Program-made: the position numbers and the translations under genes
Source of the DNA: an uncultured Planctomycetota bacterium
Lineage (GTDB): Bacteria > JAJVIF01 > JAPKYR01
Assembly: GCA_964354375.1 (NCBI GenBank)
Contig: CAYGZQ010000006.1
Coordinates: 42,109-106,108, forward strand
DNA length: 64,000 nt
Reading direction: 5' to 3'
Part shown: positions 35,979 to 53,993 of the stretch, one piece after another
Layout: every line of letters begins with the position of its first letter
How positions within the stretch are numbered: the stretch's first letter is position 1
The notes under the pieces: model-generated
The model's input: the letters and a program-made list of their open reading frames with translations, nothing else
Told to the model about the DNA's origin: nothing
Database searches by the model: none

Positions 35979-37415
35979 ATGGCTGATGAAGTAAAGAAGA
36001 AAAAAGAGATAAACCCGACCCGGCTGCCGATGCCGAAGCAGACGCCGGAGGAGCGCATCCGCAATTTCGACGAGGTGGCATTGGGATTCACGGGCGAGCT
36101 GGCCATTGCAGAGGCGCAGCGATGTCTGCAGTGCAAGAAGCCGCAGTGCATAGCGGGCTGCCCGGTGGAAGTGAACATTCCGGGCTTTATCAGTCGGATC
36201 GCGGAAGGCGATTTCGCGGGAGGCATCAAGGTACTCAAGGAAAAAAATGCGCTGCCTGCGGTGTGCGGGAGGGTATGTCCGCAGGAGGAGCAATGCGAGA
36301 AGGTATGCGTGCTTGGCAAGAAAATGCAGCCCGTGGCCGTCGGACGTCTTGAGCGATTCGCCGCCGACTTTGAGGCGAGCGAGGGCAAGCAGGAGTTCCC
36401 GGACATCGCTCCGAAAACCGGGAGGAGGGTCGCGATCGTTGGCTCCGGACCTGCCGGTATTACCGTGGCTGCGGACCTCGCCGTCCTCGGACACGAGGTG
36501 ATCGTGTTCGAGGCTCTCCACGATGTCGGAGGGGTGCTGATGTACGGGATCCCGGAGTTCCGGCTGCCCAAGGCGATTGTGCAGCGCGAGGTGGATTATG
36601 TCCGGAAGCTTGGGGCGGAAGTCATCCTCGACTACGTTGTGGGCAAAACAAAGACGATGGAAAGTCTCCTCGAGGAGTTCGACGCGGTTTTTGTGGGCTC
36701 GGGCGCAGGGCTTCCGTGGTTCCTGGGAATCCCGGGCGAGAATCTGAACGGGGTGTTCTCCGCCAACGAATACCTGACCCGCGTGAACCTGATGAAAGGC
36801 TACCTGTTTCCGCAGTTCGATACGCCGATCAAGCGGCCTCACAGGGTCGCGGTGGTGGGCGGAGGGAATGTGGCGATGGACTCCGCGCGGACCGCGCTGC
36901 GTCTCGGGGCCGACGAGTCGCACATAGTGTACCGTCGGTCGCGGGATGAGTTGCCCGCGCGGCTCGAGGAGGTGGAGAACGCGGAGGAAGAGGGAGTGAT
37001 TTTCGATTTTCTCACGCTGCCGACGAAGTGCCTGGGGAACGAGAGGGGCTGGCTGGTGGGGATGGAATGTCTTCGAATGGAATTGGGCGAGCCGGATGCG
37101 TCCGGGCGGCGAAAACCGGTGCCTATCGAGGGATCTGAGTTTATAATGGAAGTGGACGCGATGGTGGCCGCGATAGGCAACAGTCCGAATCCTCTGATTC
37201 CCCGGACGACGAAGGGTCTGACTATCGGTCGAAAGGGGAATATCGAGGCCGACGAGGAGACCGGGAAGACATCGCTAGCGGGGGTGTGGGCCGGGGGGGA
37301 TGTGGTAACCGGAGCGGCAACGGTCATCAACGCAATGGGCGCGGGCAGAAAAGCCGCGCGGTCGATGCATGAATATCTCGTGAGCCTGGAGTCCGACAAA
37401 AAGGCTGGAAAATGA
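35979..37415 (+). CDS. nfnB: NfnB/SudA (GltD-like) NADPH-binding bifurcating subunit
   Basis: EAQRCLQC..P.CIAGCPV, CGRVCPQEEQCE, GSGPAG, GGGNVAMDSAR, GGDVVTGAATVI.AMGAG. Confidence 0.88.
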   Translation: MADEVKKKKEINPTRLPMPKQTPEERIRNFDEVALGFTGELAIAEAQRCLQCKKPQCIAGCPVEVNIPGFISRIAEGDFAGGIKVLKEKNALPAVCGRVCPQEEQCEKVCVLGKKMQPVAVGRLERFAADFEASEGKQEFPDIAPKTGRRVAIVGSGPAGITVAADLAVLGHEVIVFEALHDVGGVLMYGIPEFRLPKAIVQREVDYVRKLGAEVILDYVVGKTKTMESLLEEFDAVFVGSGAGLPWFLGIPGENLNGVFSANEYLTRVNLMKGYLFPQFDTPIKRPHRVAVVGGGNVAMDSARTALRLGADESHIVYRRSRDELPARLEEVENAEEEGVIFDFLTLPTKCLGNERGWLVGMECLRMELGEPDASGRRKPVPIEGSEFIMEVDAMVAAIGNSPNPLIPRTTKGLTIGRKGNIEADEETGKTSLAGVWAGGDVVTGAATVINAMGAGRKAARSMHEYLVSLESDKKAGK

Positions 37416-48638: not shown

Positions 48639-50108
48639 TCAATTCGGCGGGCGATAGTTGGCGAGGAAGGTCTCCAGACGTCTCAGGGTGGCTTCCTTGC
48701 CGACATAGTACAGGGTCTCGAACATCCCGGGAGTGGCAAGCACTCCGGTGATTACAAGCCTCAGAGGCTGTACAACCTGACCCAGCTTCAGGCTCCTGGA
48801 TTCGATGTAGGCCCGGACCGCTCTGTCGAGTTCCTGAGGGGACCACTCTGCGTCGGCCAGCAGCTTTTTCAGCTCCCTGAGCGCATTGAACGCCTCGCCC
48901 GTCACCTTGGCTTTCCTCAGGTCCTCCTCACGATAGTGCTTCGGATCGACGAAGTAGAACTGGATCATCTGGGGGATTTCGCTCAGGACGGTAATCCTTT
49001 CGCGGTACAGGCCGATCAGACCCTTCAGCCATTCCCGGGTGCTTGGGTTGATGTCGGAAGGGTCGACGAACTCGCTGAGGAAGGGAAGGCAGACGTCATA
49101 CAGGTCCTCATCGGTTTTCGCGCGTATGTATTTCCCGTTGAACCAGAGAAGCTTGTCCCTGTCGAAGCTCGCGGGGGAGCTGGAGACCTGCTCGAGGCTG
49201 AACAACTCCTCGAGCTCCTTGAGGGAGTATATCTCTCTGTCGGTGGCATCGTTCCAGCCGAGCCTGGCGAGGTAATTGACGAATGCGTCGGGCAGGAAGC
49301 CTTCCTCCTGGTAAGCCTTCACGCTGACTGCGCCGTGACGTTTGCTCATCCGGGTTCCGTCGGAGCCGTGGATGAGCGGTATGTGCGCGAAGTGCGGCGC
49401 CTTCAATCCCAGCGCCTCGTAGATGAGAATCTGTTTGGGCGTGTTCGATAGATGATCGTCGCCGCGGATCACATGCGTGATCTCCATGGTGGAGTCATCG
49501 ACCACCACGACGAAGTTGTAGGTGGGATAGCCGTCTGCGCGGACGATTATGAAATCCTGCAGATCGTCGCGCCGGAACATGACCTCTCCCCGAATCAGGT
49601 CGCGCACAATGACAGGGGGGCCCGGCGAGATGCGGAATTTCAGGCTCTTCCCCTCGGGCGGAACGTCTTTCAGCTCCGACTGTCTGGCGGCGCAATGGCA
49701 CTTGCCGGTTCCCACTTCGTCGCGCGGAGGGCACACGCAGTGATATGCCATTCCGGCCTCCAGCAGTTTTGTGGCAGCGTTGCGGTGGAGGTCGCGACGT
49801 GCGCTCTGGAGATAAGGGCCGTGATCGCCTCTCTCGCGAGAGAGGTCGGTGGGATGCTCCTCGTCCGGACCCTCGTCCCAGTGGATCCCCAGCCAGTTGA
49901 GGCCCTCCACGAGGTGGCGAAGGCTTTCCTCGGTGCTCCGGACCTGGTCGGTGTCTTCGATTCTCAGGATGAACCTGCCGCCGTATCTTCTGGCGAACAG
50001 GTAGTTGAAGAGAGCGGTACGTGCGCTGCCGATGTGGAGCTCGCCGGTCGGAGACGGGGCGAATCGCACCCTGGGCGCTGCTTGCGGCTTTTCCGGGTCA
50101 ATAGCCAT
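48639..50108 (-). CDS. gltX: Glutamate--tRNA ligase
   Basis: RFAPSPTGELHIG, LRIEDTD, VIRGDDHLSNT, MSKRHG. Confidence 0.95.
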   Translation of the reverse strand: MAIDPEKPQAAPRVRFAPSPTGELHIGSARTALFNYLFARRYGGRFILRIEDTDQVRSTEESLRHLVEGLNWLGIHWDEGPDEEHPTDLSRERGDHGPYLQSARRDLHRNAATKLLEAGMAYHCVCPPRDEVGTGKCHCAARQSELKDVPPEGKSLKFRISPGPPVIVRDLIRGEVMFRRDDLQDFIIVRADGYPTYNFVVVVDDSTMEITHVIRGDDHLSNTPKQILIYEALGLKAPHFAHIPLIHGSDGTRMSKRHGAVSVKAYQEEGFLPDAFVNYLARLGWNDATDREIYSLKELEELFSLEQVSSSPASFDRDKLLWFNGKYIRAKTDEDLYDVCLPFLSEFVDPSDINPSTREWLKGLIGLYRERITVLSEIPQMIQFYFVDPKHYREEDLRKAKVTGEAFNALRELKKLLADAEWSPQELDRAVRAYIESRSLKLGQVVQPLRLVITGVLATPGMFETLYYVGKEATLRRLETFLANYRPPN

Positions 50109-50434: not shown

Positions 50435-51607
50435 TTGATCTACCTCGACTATGCTGCGACAAGCTGGCCGAAGCCTGCAGCCTGCATCCGAGCAATGGAG
50501 CATTTCATCACGGAGATCGGGTCGAACCCGGCCTACTCTCTTCACAGGCGCGCGCGTGTGGGTGACGACATTATCGAGCACGCGCGTCAGGACGTGGCCT
50601 GGATTCTTGGAGTCGAAAGATCGGATCACATCGCGTTCACGCTCAACGCGACGGAGGCCCTGAATCGAATCCTGTGGGGCCATGTGGAAAAGGGTTTCAG
50701 GATTCTTGCCAGCAATTTTGAACACGCATCGGTGACGCGACCACTCGCTGCGCTCAAGAAGATGCACGGGATAAGCGTGGAGCGAATCGGTCATCCGAAG
50801 ACGGGCATCATCTCGGCAAACGACATCCACGAGGCATGTGAGAAGAAACCGGCGAACCTCCTCGTTTTCACGCATGCGTCCAACGTGACCGGGGCCATCC
50901 AGCCGGTCAGGGAGCTGGTCAAGGCTGCTCATGAGGACAATTGCGCGGTGCTTCTGGACACGGCCCAGACCGCGGGCGTTCTTCCGATAGAAGCGGACAA
51001 GTGGGGCGTCGATTACCTCGCGTTTTCCGGCCATAAACACTTATTGGGCCCGATGGGGGTGGGTGGATTCTATGTAGCGGACCCCGATCGACTGAAGCCG
51101 GTCGTAGTCGGATCGACAGGTTATTTCGACGACTGCGACGACATGCCGAGCACGATGCCGCATCGATTCGAGCCCGGTACACCGAACGCGCCCGGCATAG
51201 CGGGCTTGGGCGCAAGCTGCAAAGCATTGCGCGAAAAGGGGATCGCCAATATCCGTCACGAGCAGCAGGAGCTGACGAGGCGAGTGCTCGGCGCCTTCAG
51301 AGACACCCCTGCGGTGAGAGTGTACGGATCGGGCGACGCACGTAAGCGCGTCGGGGTGATCGGTTTCAACGTAGGCAAGCTGCATCCCGCGGAGGTCGGC
51401 GACCGACTCGATCAGAAATTCGACATAATGGTGCGGACCGGGGTGTGCTCGTGTCACTGGGCGAACGAGTTTACGGGGACGATGCCGGACGGGATGGTGA
51501 GGGCGAGCATGGGTTATTTCACGAAGGAAGAGGACGTGGATCTGCTGATCGAGGCGGTGGGGATGATCGCCGAGGAAGCGTGCAATCACGAATACGTGGA
51601 TGCGTAG
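50435..51607 (+). CDS. Cysteine desulfurase-like PLP enzyme (aminotransferase class V)
   Basis: IYLDYAATSWPKP, NATEALN, HASNVTG, DTAQTAG, FSGHK, FEPGTPN. Confidence 0.85.
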   Translation: MIYLDYAATSWPKPAACIRAMEHFITEIGSNPAYSLHRRARVGDDIIEHARQDVAWILGVERSDHIAFTLNATEALNRILWGHVEKGFRILASNFEHASVTRPLAALKKMHGISVERIGHPKTGIISANDIHEACEKKPANLLVFTHASNVTGAIQPVRELVKAAHEDNCAVLLDTAQTAGVLPIEADKWGVDYLAFSGHKHLLGPMGVGGFYVADPDRLKPVVVGSTGYFDDCDDMPSTMPHRFEPGTPNAPGIAGLGASCKALREKGIANIRHEQQELTRRVLGAFRDTPAVRVYGSGDARKRVGVIGFNVGKLHPAEVGDRLDQKFDIMVRTGVCSCHWANEFTGTMPDGMVRASMGYFTKEEDVDLLIEAVGMIAEEACNHEYVDA

Positions 51608-51695
51608 GAATCGAGCTGCTCCTCCGGGTGCGCCGCTTTTCCAAGCGGCATCATAAAGAAAAGAGCCGGCTGGAAAGCCGGCGGACCCGGCACTC

Positions 51696-51724
51696 TTGCC
51701 TTTCCGGTTTTTCTGGTGTATAAA
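51696..51724 (+). promoter_or_regulatory. sigma70 promoter of the metG leader, TTGCCT-17-TATAAA
   Basis: Near-consensus hexamers with a 17-nt spacer. Confidence 0.65.
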
Positions 51725-51771
51725 AACCACAAGTGCCCCGAAAATATTGATGGCGGCGAACAGACAGGAAA

Positions 51772-51822
51772 ATGCTCGCGTACACGCACAATATGGCTAT
51801 GGAAATGCTCCATCCCGGCTGA
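51772..51822 (+). CDS. Putative Met-rich attenuator leader peptide MLAYTHNMAMEMLHPG
   Basis: ATG CTC GCG TAC ACG CAC AAT ATG GCT ATG GAA ATG CTC CAT CCC GGC TGA TAA, between the promoter and the terminator upstream of metG. Confidence 0.7.
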   Translation: MLAYTHNMAMEMLHPG

Positions 51823-51851
51823 TAACGGGGCATACCGTGCTGTGCGTGCGC

Positions 51852-51882
51852 GCCCCGAATGTCGGGGCTTTCGTTTTTTTTT
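51852..51882 (+). terminator. Attenuator terminator in the metG leader
   Basis: GCCCCGA-ATG-TCGGGGC followed by TTTCGTTTTTTTTT; an alternative partner CGGGGC lies at 51826-51831. Confidence 0.8.
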
Positions 51883-51920
51883 GATGACCTTTGAATCCCG
51901 GGAAGCGGGAGGTGTCTGCA

Positions 51921-53993
51921 ATGACAGACGAACAAGGGATATTTGCGACCACCACTCCACTCTACTACGCCAACGCGCCGTTTCATCTGGGACACGCGTA
52001 CTCCACCTATGTGTGCGACACGCTCACCCGCTTTCACAAGATGCTGGGAGACAGGACCTATTTCATCACGGGCTCGGACGAGCACGGGGAGAAGATCAAG
52101 CTGGCCGCCGAATCGCACGGCCTGACGCCGCTCGAGTGGACCGATCGCGTCGTCGACGCCGGCAAGGCCCTCTGGAAGCGCTGCGGCATCGAGTACGACT
52201 ACTTCGTCCGCACGTCGCAGCATCAGCCGGACGATCATTACCGCGACGTGCAGCGATTCTTCAAGCGCATCTACGACCGGGGCGATATCTATCTCGGGGA
52301 GTACGAAGGGCTGTATTGCGTAGGCTGCGAGAAATACCTCACGGACAGGGATCTGGTCGGGGGCAAGTGCCCTGAGCACGACCAGGAGCCGGTCACGATG
52401 AAGGAGCCCTGTCTTTTCTTCAGGCTCAGCAAATGGGCTCCCGTTGTTCTCGCGATGATCGAGAAGGAGCCCCAGAGGGTCCGACCTGACAGCCGTCGCA
52501 ACGAGATCCTCTCCAAGCTCAAGTCAGGAGTGGAAGACCTTGCTGTGAGCCGGACGAGGCTCGACTGGGGCATCCCGCTCGATGAGATCGCGGCGGGACA
52601 TGTCTGCTACGTCTGGTTCGACGCGCTGCTGGGATACGCCACAGCCGCGGGTCTGGGGGCATACCTTGATGAGGTCGACGAGAAGGAGAAGAACGCTTCA
52701 TACGAGATCCAGCCGACGAAATTCGGGACTTTCTGGCCGCACTGCGTTCACGTCACCGCGAAGGACATATTGTGGTTTCATACGGTGATCTGGCCGGCGA
52801 TGCTGCTTGCAGCCGACCTGGTTCCCGGCGGAGATCCGAGCGCGCTCGTCACTTCCGGCACGTTCTCGCACGGCTATCTTCTCGAGCGCGGCAGGAAGAT
52901 GAGCAAATCGGTCGGAAACATCCTCGATCCGTACCCATATCTTGAATTGCTCGGCAGCGACGCACTGAGGTTTTATCTGCTGAGAGAGGTCTCGTTCGGG
53001 GAGGACGGCAGCATCAGTCATGAATCCATCGCGGAGCGCACGAACGCGGACCTTGCGAACGACCTGGGGAATCTCGTGAATCGGACGCTGGCGATGATCG
53101 ACAAGGACTGCGGGGGGTTGATTCCGCCGGAAGGGCCTCACAACTCGGAGCTGGTGGAGACGGCGAAGAACGCGCACGACGGGGCGGTGCAGGCGTTGAA
53201 GGAATTCGCGCCGCATCGCGCGCTCGACGCGATATGGGACCTCGTACGCCTGGCGAATCGAACCATCGAAGAGACCCGACCCTGGGAGCTGAGGAAGGCA
53301 GGCAATATCGACGCGCTCAATTCTTTCCTGTACGACCAGGCGCAGGTGCTTCACAATCTCGCCATACTTCTGCATCCGTTTCTCCCTGAGCTGACGCGGA
53401 AGATCTGGGATCAGCTCGGGCTTCCCGGTGAGGTAGCCAGGCATCGGTATCAAGACGGCGGCGGATGGGGCACAATCGATCCCGGCACGTGCATCAACCA
53501 CGGCGAGCCGATTTTCCCCAGGATCGACATTGCACGATTCCTTGAGGAGGTCGCGAAATTGTCAGCAAAACGCGATATCGAACGGGAGGAGCTGGGGCAA
53601 AAACCTGTCGCAGCTCCGCGGGAGACATCCAAGCCATCAGCGAAGGTCCCCGAGATTCCCCAGCTCAAGGGCGAGATCACTTTCGAGGAGTTTCTTAAGC
53701 TCGACCTGAGGGTTGCGAAAGTGCTGTCCTGCGAACCGGTCAAGGGGACGGACAAGCTTCTGAAAATGCAGATCGATCTCGGGAGCGAGCAGAGGCAGAT
53801 AGTCGCCGGGATCGCGAAGGTCTACAAACCCCAGGAACTGGTCGGCAAACTGATCGTGGTGGTCGTGAATCTGAAACCGGTGAAGCTGAAGGGCGAGGAA
53901 TCGCGCGGAATGCTTCTTGCTACCGGCGACGACGGGGACATCACGCTGCTTGTGCCGGAAAAACCGGTGGATCCGGGCGAGACGGTGCATTAG
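51921..53993 (+). CDS. metG: Methionine--tRNA ligase with a C-terminal tRNA-binding domain
   Basis: TTPLYYAN.PFHLGHAY, GSDEHG, YVWFDAL, KMSKS, DLRVAKV; GGGAGG SD before ATG 51921. Confidence 0.95.
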   Translation: MTDEQGIFATTTPLYYANAPFHLGHAYSTYVCDTLTRFHKMLGDRTYFITGSDEHGEKIKLAAESHGLTPLEWTDRVVDAGKALWKRCGIEYDYFVRTSQHQPDDHYRDVQRFFKRIYDRGDIYLGEYEGLYCVGCEKYLTDRDLVGGKCPEHDQEPVTMKEPCLFFRLSKWAPVVLAMIEKEPQRVRPDSRRNEILSKLKSGVEDLAVSRTRLDWGIPLDEIAAGHVCYVWFDALLGYATAAGLGAYLDEVDEKEKNASYEIQPTKFGTFWPHCVHVTAKDILWFHTVIWPAMLLAADLVPGGDPSALVTSGTFSHGYLLERGRKMSKSVGNILDPYPYLELLGSDALRFYLLREVSFGEDGSISHESIAERTNADLANDLGNLVNRTLAMIDKDCGGLIPPEGPHNSELVETAKNAHDGAVQALKEFAPHRALDAIWDLVRLANRTIEETRPWELRKAGNIDALNSFLYDQAQVLHNLAILLHPFLPELTRKIWDQLGLPGEVARHRYQDGGGWGTIDPGTCINHGEPIFPRIDIARFLEEVAKLSAKRDIEREELGQKPVAAPRETSKPSAKVPEIPQLKGEITFEEFLKLDLRVAKVLSCEPVKGTDKLLKMQIDLGSEQRQIVAGIAKVYKPQELVGKLIVVVVNLKPVKLKGEESRGMLLATGDDGDITLLVPEKPVDPGETVH

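What the first reader, a model, noticed from the sequence alone, without database searches (positions are those of the whole stretch)
51696..51923. Methionine-codon leader-peptide transcription attenuator upstream of metG
Seen in sequence: a promoter (TTGCCT-17-TATAAA) is followed by a 16-codon ORF, MLAYTHN-M-A-M-E-M-LHPG* (51772-51822), with three clustered internal Met codons. An intrinsic terminator (GCCCCGA/TCGGGGC plus U-tract, 51852-51882) follows, then metG. All mutually exclusive pairings are present. 1:2 is ATGCTCC (third internal Met codon, 51805-11) with GGGGCAT (51827-33), extended by 51778-96 pairing with 51835-53 (with GU pairs and two mismatches). The 2:3 antiterminator is CGGGGC (51826-31) with GCCCCG (51852-57). 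3:4 is the terminator. Inference: a ribosome stalled on the Met codons frees segment 2 and allows readthrough, while one reaching the stop covers segment 2 and allows termination, which is the trp/pheM geometry. Established: such attenuators are known for Trp, His, Phe (pheST), Thr and branched-chain amino acids, whereas Met genes typically use T-boxes, SAM riboswitches or MetJ. I know of no described Met-codon attenuator. It is also mechanistically odd, because the same MetRS charges the initiator tRNA needed to start the leader. Caveat: the leader SD (AGGA) sits very close to the ATG.
Basis: partly seen in the sequence, partly recalled or inferred. Interest (0 to 1): 0.88.

Follow-up and report, generated by a model that had tools for sequence, protein, structure and literature searches.

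The report
Methionine-codon leader attenuator before metG
A short upstream reading frame with three clustered methionine codons, followed by a switchable terminator, sits in front of the methionyl-tRNA synthetase gene and is kept in every visible relative, which points to a trp-style attenuator tuned to methionine, a specificity I found described nowhere.

Summary

The element is conserved. A covariance model finds one strong copy per genome in 8 of 9 genomes of the family. The ninth assembly lacks the metG locus. It also finds it in 7 of 7 close metagenomic metG relatives that have upstream DNA, always directly before metG.

The three internal ATG codons are invariant in 15 of 15 sequences. 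By contrast, 0 of 94 more distant metG upstream regions carry a Met-rich uORF.

The helix joining the uORF 5' part to the stretch before the terminator covaries. Ribosome-masked folding reproduces the three-state trp logic.

The same genome carries cognate-codon leaders before ileS (III), valS (VVVV), leuS (Leu-rich), trpS (WWW) and probably cysS. It has no T-box.

Eight full-text searches found no described Met leader.

Verdict: a real leader-peptide attenuator, most likely Met-tRNA-sensing. It is a new variant of a known kind. No expression or functional data exist.

The parts
51696..51724 (+). Promoter-like block: TTGCCT, 17-nt spacer, TATAAA.
   Evidence: Read. TTGNNN-17-TATA(A/T)(A/G) is kept in all 14 loci that reach this far. 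The consensus scan did not flag it.
51734..51758 (+). 5' hairpin of the leader transcript with an AU-rich loop (GAAAATATTGAT here, GATTATATT in relatives). Role unknown.
   Evidence: MFE fold. Read by eye, the stems differ between relatives while staying complementary. This was not counted formally.
51772..51822 (+). Leader uORF of 16 codons, MLAYTHNMAMEMLHPG, ending in TGA. A second in-frame stop TAA follows at 51823-25.
   Evidence: The frame, start and stop are kept in relatives: 16 codons in 12 of 15 and 15 codons in 2 of 15, with G003 cut by its contig end. The third codon position is the most variable.
51793..51807 (+). Regulatory Met codons 8, 10 and 12, starting at 51793, 51799 and 51805.
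   Evidence: Invariant in 15 of 15 sequences. The middle ATG lies in no predicted helix.
51777..51789 (+). Segment 1, 5' strand of helix P1 (uORF codons 2-6). It pairs with 51842-51852.
   Evidence: cognate duplex -20.3 kcal/mol, matched by 0 of 300 shuffles; 4 of 6 pairs change on both sides.
51826..51833 (+). Segment 2, CGGGGCAT. In the untranslated state it pairs with the end of the uORF (ATGC 51805-08 and CCCG 51814-17). When freed it pairs with GCCCCG 51852-57 as the antiterminator.
   Evidence: helices 2 and 3 are 95% and 85% paired; the antiterminator is 97.8% paired and invariant. One search gives the state-dependent folds.
51842..51852 (+). 3' strand of helix P1 (GTGCGTGCGCG), abutting the terminator arm.
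51852..51882 (+). Intrinsic terminator: GCCCCG(A), loop, (T)CGGGGC, then a T-tract at 51869-51882.
   Evidence: The helix is 98.9% paired across 15 sequences.
51921..53993 (+). metG, methionine--tRNA ligase of 690 aa with a C-terminal tRNA-binding domain. GGAGG lies at 51908-51912.
   Evidence: Pfam tRNA-synt_1g and tRNA_bind. NCBIfam NF008900 scores 697 bits, above its cut-off.

Best explanation
This is a classical ribosome-mediated (leader-peptide) transcription attenuator that sets metG transcription according to the supply of charged elongator tRNA-Met.

Transcription starts at the conserved promoter. A ribosome then translates the 16-codon leader.

- Plenty of Met-tRNA(Met): the ribosome runs to the stop codon and covers CGGGGC (segment 2, 6 nt after the stop). 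The terminator forms and RNA polymerase stops at the T-tract.
- Scarce Met-tRNA(Met): the ribosome stalls at Met codon 8, 10 or 12. It melts the uORF strand that normally sequesters segment 2. Segment 2 pairs with GCCCCG (segment 3) before the terminator 3' arm is made, and polymerase reads into metG.
- No translation at all: segment 1 holds segment 2 and the terminator forms.

Shown here: the parts, their conservation, the covariation of helix P1, and the folding logic.

Inferred: that the uORF is translated, that stalling is Met-specific, and that readthrough rises when charging falls.
For: 1. Anatomy at the stated coordinates.

2. Conservation with the gene.
- The model R1 finds exactly one strong hit per genome in 8 of 9 family genomes (E from 5e-20 to 6e-29).
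- It finds it in 7 of 7 close metagenomic relatives with upstream DNA, and in 0 of 72 distant ones.
- The hit is always directly 5' of metG. The upstream neighbour differs: the class-V aminotransferase is upstream only in G000, G005, G006, L069 and L075.

3. Regulatory codons.
- Three ATGs are invariant in 15 of 15 sequences. The residues between them vary (A, E, D, G, M, V).
- The third ATG sits 17-18 nt from CGGGGC in all 15, even where the stop codon moved (L070).

4. Coding signature.
- Start and stop are kept, and the one length change inside the frame is a whole codon (L069).
- Mean pairwise identity is 0.65, 0.56 and 0.45 at codon positions 1, 2 and 3.

5. Structure.
- The P1 duplex beats shuffles (at most 4 of 300) in 12 of 14 sequences. 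Fully replaced but still complementary strands occur in L069, L074 and L073.
- 90% of cells are paired, against 25-56% when partners are slid. 5 pairs change on both sides, a value reached by 10 of 500 shuffles.

6. State logic with RNA folded up to the terminator loop.
- The antiterminator is absent in 13 of 15 sequences when untranslated.
- It is present in 15 of 15 with a ribosome at Met12, 14 of 15 at Met8, and 12 of 15 at Met10.

7. System context. The same genome has uORF-plus-terminator leaders whose enriched residue matches the synthetase downstream.
- The leaders are ileS MSSIVRIEGIIIESP, valS ..TVTVVVVAV.., trpS ..TWWWSGG, and leuS ..FLFVLDLDLL...
- They are conserved across the family in 8 of 9, 6 of 6, 6 of 8 and 9 of 9 loci respectively.

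8. No T-box occurs in any of the 14 genomes of the phylum, so another tRNA-charging sensor is expected.
Against: - There is no expression, 3'-end or ribosome data. No RNA run holds the region.
- The single-sequence fold is not unusual (z = -1.56).
- The antiterminator and terminator never vary, so they give no covariation for or against.
- At equilibrium the terminator beats the antiterminator in 14 of 15 sequences even with the Met12 stall mask. Antitermination therefore has to be kinetic.
- The result for a ribosome at the stop codon is forced by my mask.
- Two sequences (G005, L072) have a weak P1. G005 forms the antiterminator even when untranslated.
- Two of the three ATGs also sit in predicted helices, so part of their invariance could be structural.
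- The leader SD in this genome is only 2 nt from the ATG, and G001 has no obvious SD.
- Starting the leader itself needs Met-tRNA(fMet). Severe MetRS shortage could in principle give superattenuation rather than induction.
- Relatives are kin, so the counts are not independent.
Confidence: 0.74

Rival explanations
1. The terminator/antiterminator switch is real, but a trans factor binding the leader RNA sets it. An example would be MetRS recognising an anticodon-like CAU, as ThrRS does on the E. coli thrS operator (recalled). On this view the uORF is incidental.
For: CGGGGCAU follows the stop codon in 11 of 15 sequences. MetRS has an extra tRNA-binding domain. The antiterminator loop is 18-22 nt and could present a motif.
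Against: CAU is absent at that site in 4 of 15 sequences (G007, G005, L073, and L070 in part). Where present it is explained by pairing with the third ATG (helix 2). No anticodon-loop-like CUCAUAA is present. This rival explains neither the invariant middle ATG outside any helix, nor the kept frame, start and stop. It also does not explain the parallel Ile, Val, Leu and Trp leaders.
Confidence: 0.08
2. The uORF is translated and couples transcription to translation. It reports general translation capacity, or initiation at any of its four AUGs, and not Met-tRNA(Met) in particular. Alternatively the peptide acts on its own.
For: Any slowing of the leader ribosome before codon 13 would free segment 2. 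The three internal AUGs could also act as start codons; in G003 the frame may begin there. The Pro-Gly-stop ending is kept in 10 of 15 sequences.
Against: Only the Met codons are invariant in the peptide. The other positions vary freely. In five synthetase genes the enriched residue matches the enzyme in each case, which a general sensor would not need. CCCGG of the Pro-Gly codons is also explained by pairing with CGGGG.
Confidence: 0.12
3. The feature is a chance or constitutive one: a terminator of an upstream transcript or a small RNA, next to a meaningless short ORF.
For: The z-score of the single fold is -1.56. Short ORFs and terminators are common; 250 raw combinations were found genome-wide.
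Against: A conserved promoter lies directly upstream in 14 of 14 loci. The element travels with metG while the upstream gene changes. It scores 42-118 bits in 15 distinct sequences. 0 of 94 other metG upstream regions have a Met-rich uORF.
Confidence: 0.03

Closest known systems
E. coli pheST attenuator with the pheM leader peptide (recalled textbook knowledge, not read here)
   Same: An aminoacyl-tRNA synthetase gene is controlled by a short leader ORF rich in the cognate codons, with alternative hairpins and an intrinsic terminator. This gives negative feedback on tRNA charging.
   Different: The amino acid is Met instead of Phe. The regulatory codons alternate (M-x-M-x-M) instead of running consecutively. 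The sensed synthetase also charges the initiator tRNA that starts the leader. There is no sequence relation.
E. coli trp operon attenuator (trpL) (recalled; cited as the model in PMC4117421, passages read)
   Same: The four-segment 1:2 / 2:3 / 3:4 geometry. The regulatory codons lie a few codons before the stop. The stop codon lies close enough to segment 2 for a terminating ribosome to mask it.
   Different: It controls a synthetase gene and not a biosynthetic operon. Segment 2 is held by three short helices (P1, P3, P4) spread over the whole uORF and not by one hairpin.
Leader peptides before synthetase genes in other phyla: trpS and leuS in Streptomyces (PMC1262725, passages); trpS and ileS leader CDSs in Caulobacter (PMC4117421, passages); His leader before hisS paralogues in Bacillus (PMC2965389, passages)
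   Same: Cognate-codon uORFs upstream of aaRS genes, predicted or seen by ribosome profiling.
   Different: None of the passages read concerns Met or metG. The present lineage combines at least five such leaders (Ile, Val, Leu, Trp, Met) in one genome.
T-box riboswitch (RF00230), the usual sensor on methionyl-tRNA synthetase genes of Firmicutes (that usage is recalled)
   Same: It senses tRNA charging and acts through a terminator/antiterminator choice upstream of synthetase genes.
   Different: A T-box binds uncharged tRNA directly and needs no translation. No T-box is detectable at this locus or in any of the 14 genomes of the phylum.

Membership tests
Classical ribosome-mediated (leader-peptide) transcription attenuator | Short ORF with its own start and stop between the promoter and the regulated gene | tested here: met
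   The uORF is at 51772-51822. The frame is kept in 14 of 15 relatives, with G003 cut at its contig end. This is a coding-like pattern only; translation itself was not tested.
Classical ribosome-mediated (leader-peptide) transcription attenuator | Cluster of codons for the amino acid linked to the regulated gene | tested here: met
   Three internal Met codons are invariant in 15 of 15 sequences. The gene is metG. 0 of 94 unrelated metG upstream regions show such a uORF.
Classical ribosome-mediated (leader-peptide) transcription attenuator | Intrinsic terminator between the uORF and the gene | tested here: met
   The helix is 98.9% paired in 15 sequences and followed by a T-tract.
Classical ribosome-mediated (leader-peptide) transcription attenuator | Antiterminator that shares a strand with the terminator | tested here: met
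   CGGGGC 51826-31 pairs with GCCCCG 51852-57. It is 97.8% paired across 15 sequences but invariant, so there is no covariation.
Classical ribosome-mediated (leader-peptide) transcription attenuator | Anti-antiterminator (1:2) overlapping the translated region | tested here: met
   Helices P1, P3 and P4. P1 covaries, with 4 of 6 pairs changing on both sides, and beats shuffles in 12 of 14 sequences.
Classical ribosome-mediated (leader-peptide) transcription attenuator | Geometry: a stall at the regulatory codons frees segment 2, and a ribosome at the stop masks it | tested here: met
   Masked folding: the antiterminator forms in 15 of 15 with a Met12 stall and is absent in 13 of 15 when untranslated. 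The stop-codon state is forced by the mask. The stop lies 5-9 nt from segment 2.
Classical ribosome-mediated (leader-peptide) transcription attenuator | Readthrough rises when the cognate charged tRNA is scarce | not testable with these tools
   No RNA run holds the region. The organisms are known only from assemblies.
T-box riboswitch (RF00230) | Match to the T-box covariance model (specifier loop, T-box sequence) | tested here: not met
   No T-box hit at E up to 10 in 51300-52300. 0 of 14 genomes of the phylum have one, and the controls ring.
SAM-I riboswitch (RF00162) | Match to the SAM-I model at this locus | tested here: not met
   No hit at the locus. The single SAM-I copy of the genome lies before metK on another contig.
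Curated Rfam leader families (such as the His, Leu, Thr and Trp leaders) | Match to any Rfam 15 model | tested here: not met
   Only four chance-level hits (E 0.84-5.1) to unrelated families. Nothing in the whole window reaches a gathering score.

The most novel reading that the evidence does not exclude
A little-known bacterial lineage (14 species genomes in its phylum) has no T-boxes. Instead it controls at least five, perhaps six, class-I aminoacyl-tRNA synthetase genes (ileS, valS, leuS, trpS, metG, perhaps cysS), each with its own cognate-codon leader peptide.

The metG member would be the first attenuator specific for methionine. It would have to tell elongator Met-tRNA charging apart from the initiator Met-tRNA that starts the leader. 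The alternating spacing of the sensing codons (MxMxM, WxW, CxCxCxC) may be part of how it does so.
Probability: 0.6. Interest if true: 0.75.

Novelty: new variant of a known kind. Interest (0 to 1): 0.64.

Why it matters
Leader-peptide attenuation is a textbook mechanism. Its known specificities are Trp, His, Phe, Thr, Leu, Ile/Val and, more recently, Cys. In the literature I could search, methionine genes are described as controlled by SAM riboswitches, T-boxes or repressors.

A Met-specific leader would show that the mechanism works for the one amino acid whose charged tRNA is also needed to start the sensor peptide. That raises a clear, testable question: how are initiator and elongator charging separated?

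The wider picture is that one genome uses matching leaders on five class-I synthetase genes and has no T-box. This offers a natural example of one tRNA-charging sensor family standing in for another. It also gives compact parts (about 190 nt) for amino-acid-specific reporters.

Tried and rejected
- Rfam. A scan of the locus at E up to 10 gave four chance-level hits. The whole window at gathering score gave none.
- Weak model hits. Three hits elsewhere (L048, L049, L050; E 0.0016-0.03) are plain terminators without a Met uORF. Two weak hits in G012 and G013 (E 0.05 and 0.09) lie on contigs other than those with metG. I did not inspect them.
- Pattern scan of genome contigs. Only 6 of those 80 match the model, all at the same contig positions as family genomes already found. 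The scan is therefore not exhaustive and missed G005.
- Genome-wide uORF/terminator scan. It is noisy; most of the 250 raw hits are ends of upstream genes with their terminators. I used it only as a lead.
- Sequencing runs. No RNA holder is listed. Only small-share DNA holders appeared, and I did not lay them.
- Lopatovskaya et al. 2010, on attenuation of amino-acid and aminoacyl-tRNA operons (pmid 20198868), is not held. Vitreschak et al. 2004 was not read either. Either could list a Met leader.
- Supplementary files were not opened.
- The MAFFT columns misplace helix P2 (ATGGC with GYCGT) between sequences, so I left P2 out of the pair counts.
- No structure or complex prediction was attempted, because the finding is an RNA element.
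Full report
**What is in the sequence**

- TTGCCT (51696-51701), 17 nt, then TATAAA (51719-51724).
- A 16-codon frame MLAYTHNMAMEMLHPG from ATG 51772 to TGA 51820-22. A second in-frame stop, TAA, follows.
- CGGGGC at 51826-31.
- GCCCCG (51852-57), a loop, CGGGGC (51863-68), and a T-tract to 51882.
- The metG ATG at 51921, preceded by GGAGG.

The downstream gene is methionine--tRNA ligase. Pfam gives tRNA-synt_1g plus a C-terminal tRNA_bind domain. NCBIfam NF008900 scores 697 bits, above its cut-off.

The terminator scan finds the hairpin. The promoter scan does not flag the promoter, because TATAAA ends in A.

The MFE fold pairs the 5' part of the uORF with the stretch before the terminator and forms the terminator. 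Its energy is only 1.56 sd below shuffles. On one sequence alone the case would be weak.

Rfam has no T-box, SAM or leader family here, and nothing in the whole window.

**Conservation**

The window lies in a 99%-complete assembly, G000. Its phylum holds only 14 species genomes, 9 of them in its family.

I built a covariance model from seven upstream regions and searched with it.
- It finds one strong hit per genome in 8 of 9 family genomes.
- The ninth genome, G004, is 79% complete and its metG locus was not recovered.
- No strong hit occurs in the other five genomes of the phylum.
- In G002 the leader and metG sit on two contigs that both end in the same repeats.

An unbiased search of metagenome contigs with the MetRS N-terminus returned 80 loci.
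- Eight loci are 76-98% identical to the query. The rest are at most 47% identical.
- The model hits 7 of the 7 close loci that have upstream DNA. L071 is cut at the gene start. It hits 0 of the 72 distant loci.
- L068 is 98% identical to the window and is not independent.

A simple test asked for a uORF with at least three Met in seven codons within 350 nt of metG. It is positive in those 7 close loci and in 0 of 94 other metG upstream regions, from 101 scanned.

The element stays with metG while the upstream gene changes. The class-V aminotransferase is upstream only in G000, G005, G006, L069 and L075.

**The uORF**

In the 15-sequence alignment the three internal ATGs are invariant. The residues between them vary (A, E, D, G, M, V).

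Examples of the peptides:
- MFAYTKHMAMGMLKPG
- MYAYTLTMEMMMRPPE
- MYGNLRNMDMDMHRPG
- MARRQSMAMVMLDPG
- MTGFFRTMGMMMYRPG

Features that point to a translated frame:
- The frame is 16 codons in 12 of 15 sequences and 15 codons in two. G003 is cut by its contig end, or starts at TTG.
- The only length change inside the frame is one whole codon (L069).
- Mean pairwise identity falls from 0.65 and 0.56 at codon positions 1 and 2 to 0.45 at position 3. Thr, Ala and Pro codons show synonymous series.
- The middle ATG is in no predicted helix, so pairing does not explain it.
- The third ATG is 17-18 nt from CGGGGC in all 15 sequences, including L070, where the stop codon lies one codon earlier.

**Structure**

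I counted pairs on the MAFFT alignment, which was not fitted to any structure.

For the terminated state (P1, P3, P4 and the terminator):
- 90% of cells are paired, against 25-56% when the partners are slid.
- Five pairs change on both sides, a value reached by 10 of 500 shuffles. Four of the six P1 pairs are among them.

P1 joins uORF codons 2-6 to the bases just 5' of the terminator arm.
- Its cognate duplex energy beats shuffles (at most 4 of 300) in 12 of 14 sequences.
- Three diverged members carry replaced but complementary strands: GAAGGCA/TGCCTTC, GCGCAC/GTGCGC and GTATAC/GTATAC.
- G005 and L072 have a weak P1.

The antiterminator (CGGGGC with GCCCCG) is 97.8% paired but invariant. It therefore gives no covariation either way. 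Invariance is expected for a strand that must pair with two partners.

**State logic**

I folded each leader with the part inside a ribosome forced single-stranded. The mask ran from the 5' end to 13 nt past the A-site codon. The RNA was cut just before the terminator 3' arm.

| Ribosome position | Sequences forming the antiterminator |
|---|---|
| None (untranslated) | 2 of 15 (truncated G003, and G005) |
| Met8 | 14 of 15 |
| Met10 | 12 of 15 |
| Met12 | 15 of 15 |
| Stop codon | 0 of 15 (forced by the mask) |

With the full-length RNA at equilibrium, the terminator wins in 14 of 15 sequences even under the Met12 mask. Readthrough must therefore depend on the antiterminator forming first, as in the classical model.

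**Context in the genome**

- No T-box exists in any of the 14 genomes of the phylum.
- A single SAM-I riboswitch per genome occurs in 12 of 14 genomes. In G000 it precedes metK.
- Three tRNA genes with anticodon CAT are present. One has features I recall as typical of initiator tRNA.
- A genome-wide scan and a look at synthetase upstream regions found further leaders whose enriched residue matches the enzyme.

| Gene | Leader peptide in G000 | Terminator seen | Family conservation |
|---|---|---|---|
| ileS | MSSIVRIEGIIIESP | yes | 8 of 9 |
| valS | MRSLPQIFTVTVVVVAVPRAGP | yes | 6 of 6 |
| trpS | MRLNANSIFSSFRTWWWSGG | yes | 6 of 8 (WxW or WWW) |
| leuS | MSYSKFLFVLDLDLLRPTSR | hairpin, no clear T-tract | 9 of 9 |

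- Enzyme identities rest on NCBIfam equivalogs above cut-off.
- cysS has a uORF with CECRCYC. I did not check it in relatives.
- No cognate leader was seen before the 535-aa tRNA-synt_1b gene, the four tRNA-synt_2b genes, argS, pheS or three gltX/glnS-type genes.
- Five cognate matches in five class-I synthetase genes argue strongly that the Met codons are read as Met codons.

**Comparison with what is known**

The geometry is that of the trp and pheST attenuators (recalled). Leader peptides before synthetase genes have been reported in other phyla:
- trpS and leuS in Streptomyces (PMC1262725, passages).
- trpS and ileS in Caulobacter (PMC4117421, passages).
- hisS paralogues in Bacillus (PMC2965389, passages).

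None of the passages read concerns Met. PMC1262725 states that no conserved RNA structures were seen upstream of methionine operons in Actinobacteria.

Eight full-text searches found no Met-codon leader or metG attenuator. Two relevant comparative papers could not be read. Supplements were not opened.

I file the element as a new variant of a known kind. It has a new amino-acid specificity and a new regulated gene, inside a lineage that uses the mechanism unusually widely.

**Open points**

- Nothing shows that the uORF is translated or that termination responds to Met. No RNA run was listed.
- The initiator problem is real. Without Met-tRNA(fMet) the leader is not started, and the untranslated state terminates. 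One protein uses one initiator Met but several elongator Met. I therefore infer that elongator charging falls first, but this is untested.
- The 5' hairpin with its conserved AU-rich loop is unexplained.

**Scores**

- Confidence that this is a functional Met-tRNA-sensing attenuator: 0.74.
- Interest: 0.64.

Noticed in passing
G000:C29:42453-46166 (L271), G000:C3:11088-14327 (L272), G000:C86:8518-11526 (L273), G000:C49:29446-30894 (L274): ileS, valS, leuS and trpS each carry an upstream uORF rich in the cognate codons (III, VVVV, Leu-rich, WWW). ileS, valS and trpS also have a terminator with a T-tract. The leuS leader (..LDLLRPASR) has a hairpin but no clear T-tract and may work differently. 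All four are conserved across the family.
   Followed up: partly
G000:C33, about 180-300 nt upstream of the tRNA-synt_1e match at 36821: A 41-codon uORF before cysS contains CECRCYC, four Cys at alternating positions. This echoes MxMxM and WxW. My scan saw no terminator, and relatives were not checked.
   Followed up: no
window 51734-51758: A hairpin lies between the promoter and the uORF. Its stems differ between relatives but stay complementary, and its loop is a conserved AU-rich GATTATATT-like sequence resembling a -10 element. It might be a 5' stabiliser or a promoter-proximal pause site.
   Followed up: partly
L006 (G008), L041 and L004 (G002), between the leader terminator and metG: In one genus, 300 to more than 800 nt of G/C-run repeats are inserted between the intact leader terminator and metG. 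The units contain CCCCCCTATAATCCCCCC and GGTTTGTTTTGGTTGGGGTTTAAG. They could bring their own promoters and bypass the attenuator.
   Followed up: no
L016 (G013) and L018 (G012), upstream of metG: Long arrays of GTTAGCAAGTTAGAAG-like tandem units are followed by their inverted copies directly before metG in two genomes of the same class. No Met uORF is present there.
   Followed up: no
window 51633-51650 and 51665-51682: Two GC-rich hairpins follow the class-V aminotransferase gene (50435-51607). The second has an A-run before it, and the scan reads it as a terminator on the minus strand.
   Followed up: no
window 51896-51912: A small hairpin, CCCGGGAAGCGGG, overlaps the metG Shine-Dalgarno GGAGG. 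CCCGG(N4)CGGGAGGTG-like sequences recur in relatives. It may add control of translation.
   Followed up: no
window 48639-50108 (-): A 489-aa ORF on the minus strand matches tRNA-synt_1c (Glu/Gln-tRNA ligase type). It is one of three such genes in the genome (contig positions converted to window positions). No cognate leader was seen before it.
   Followed up: partly
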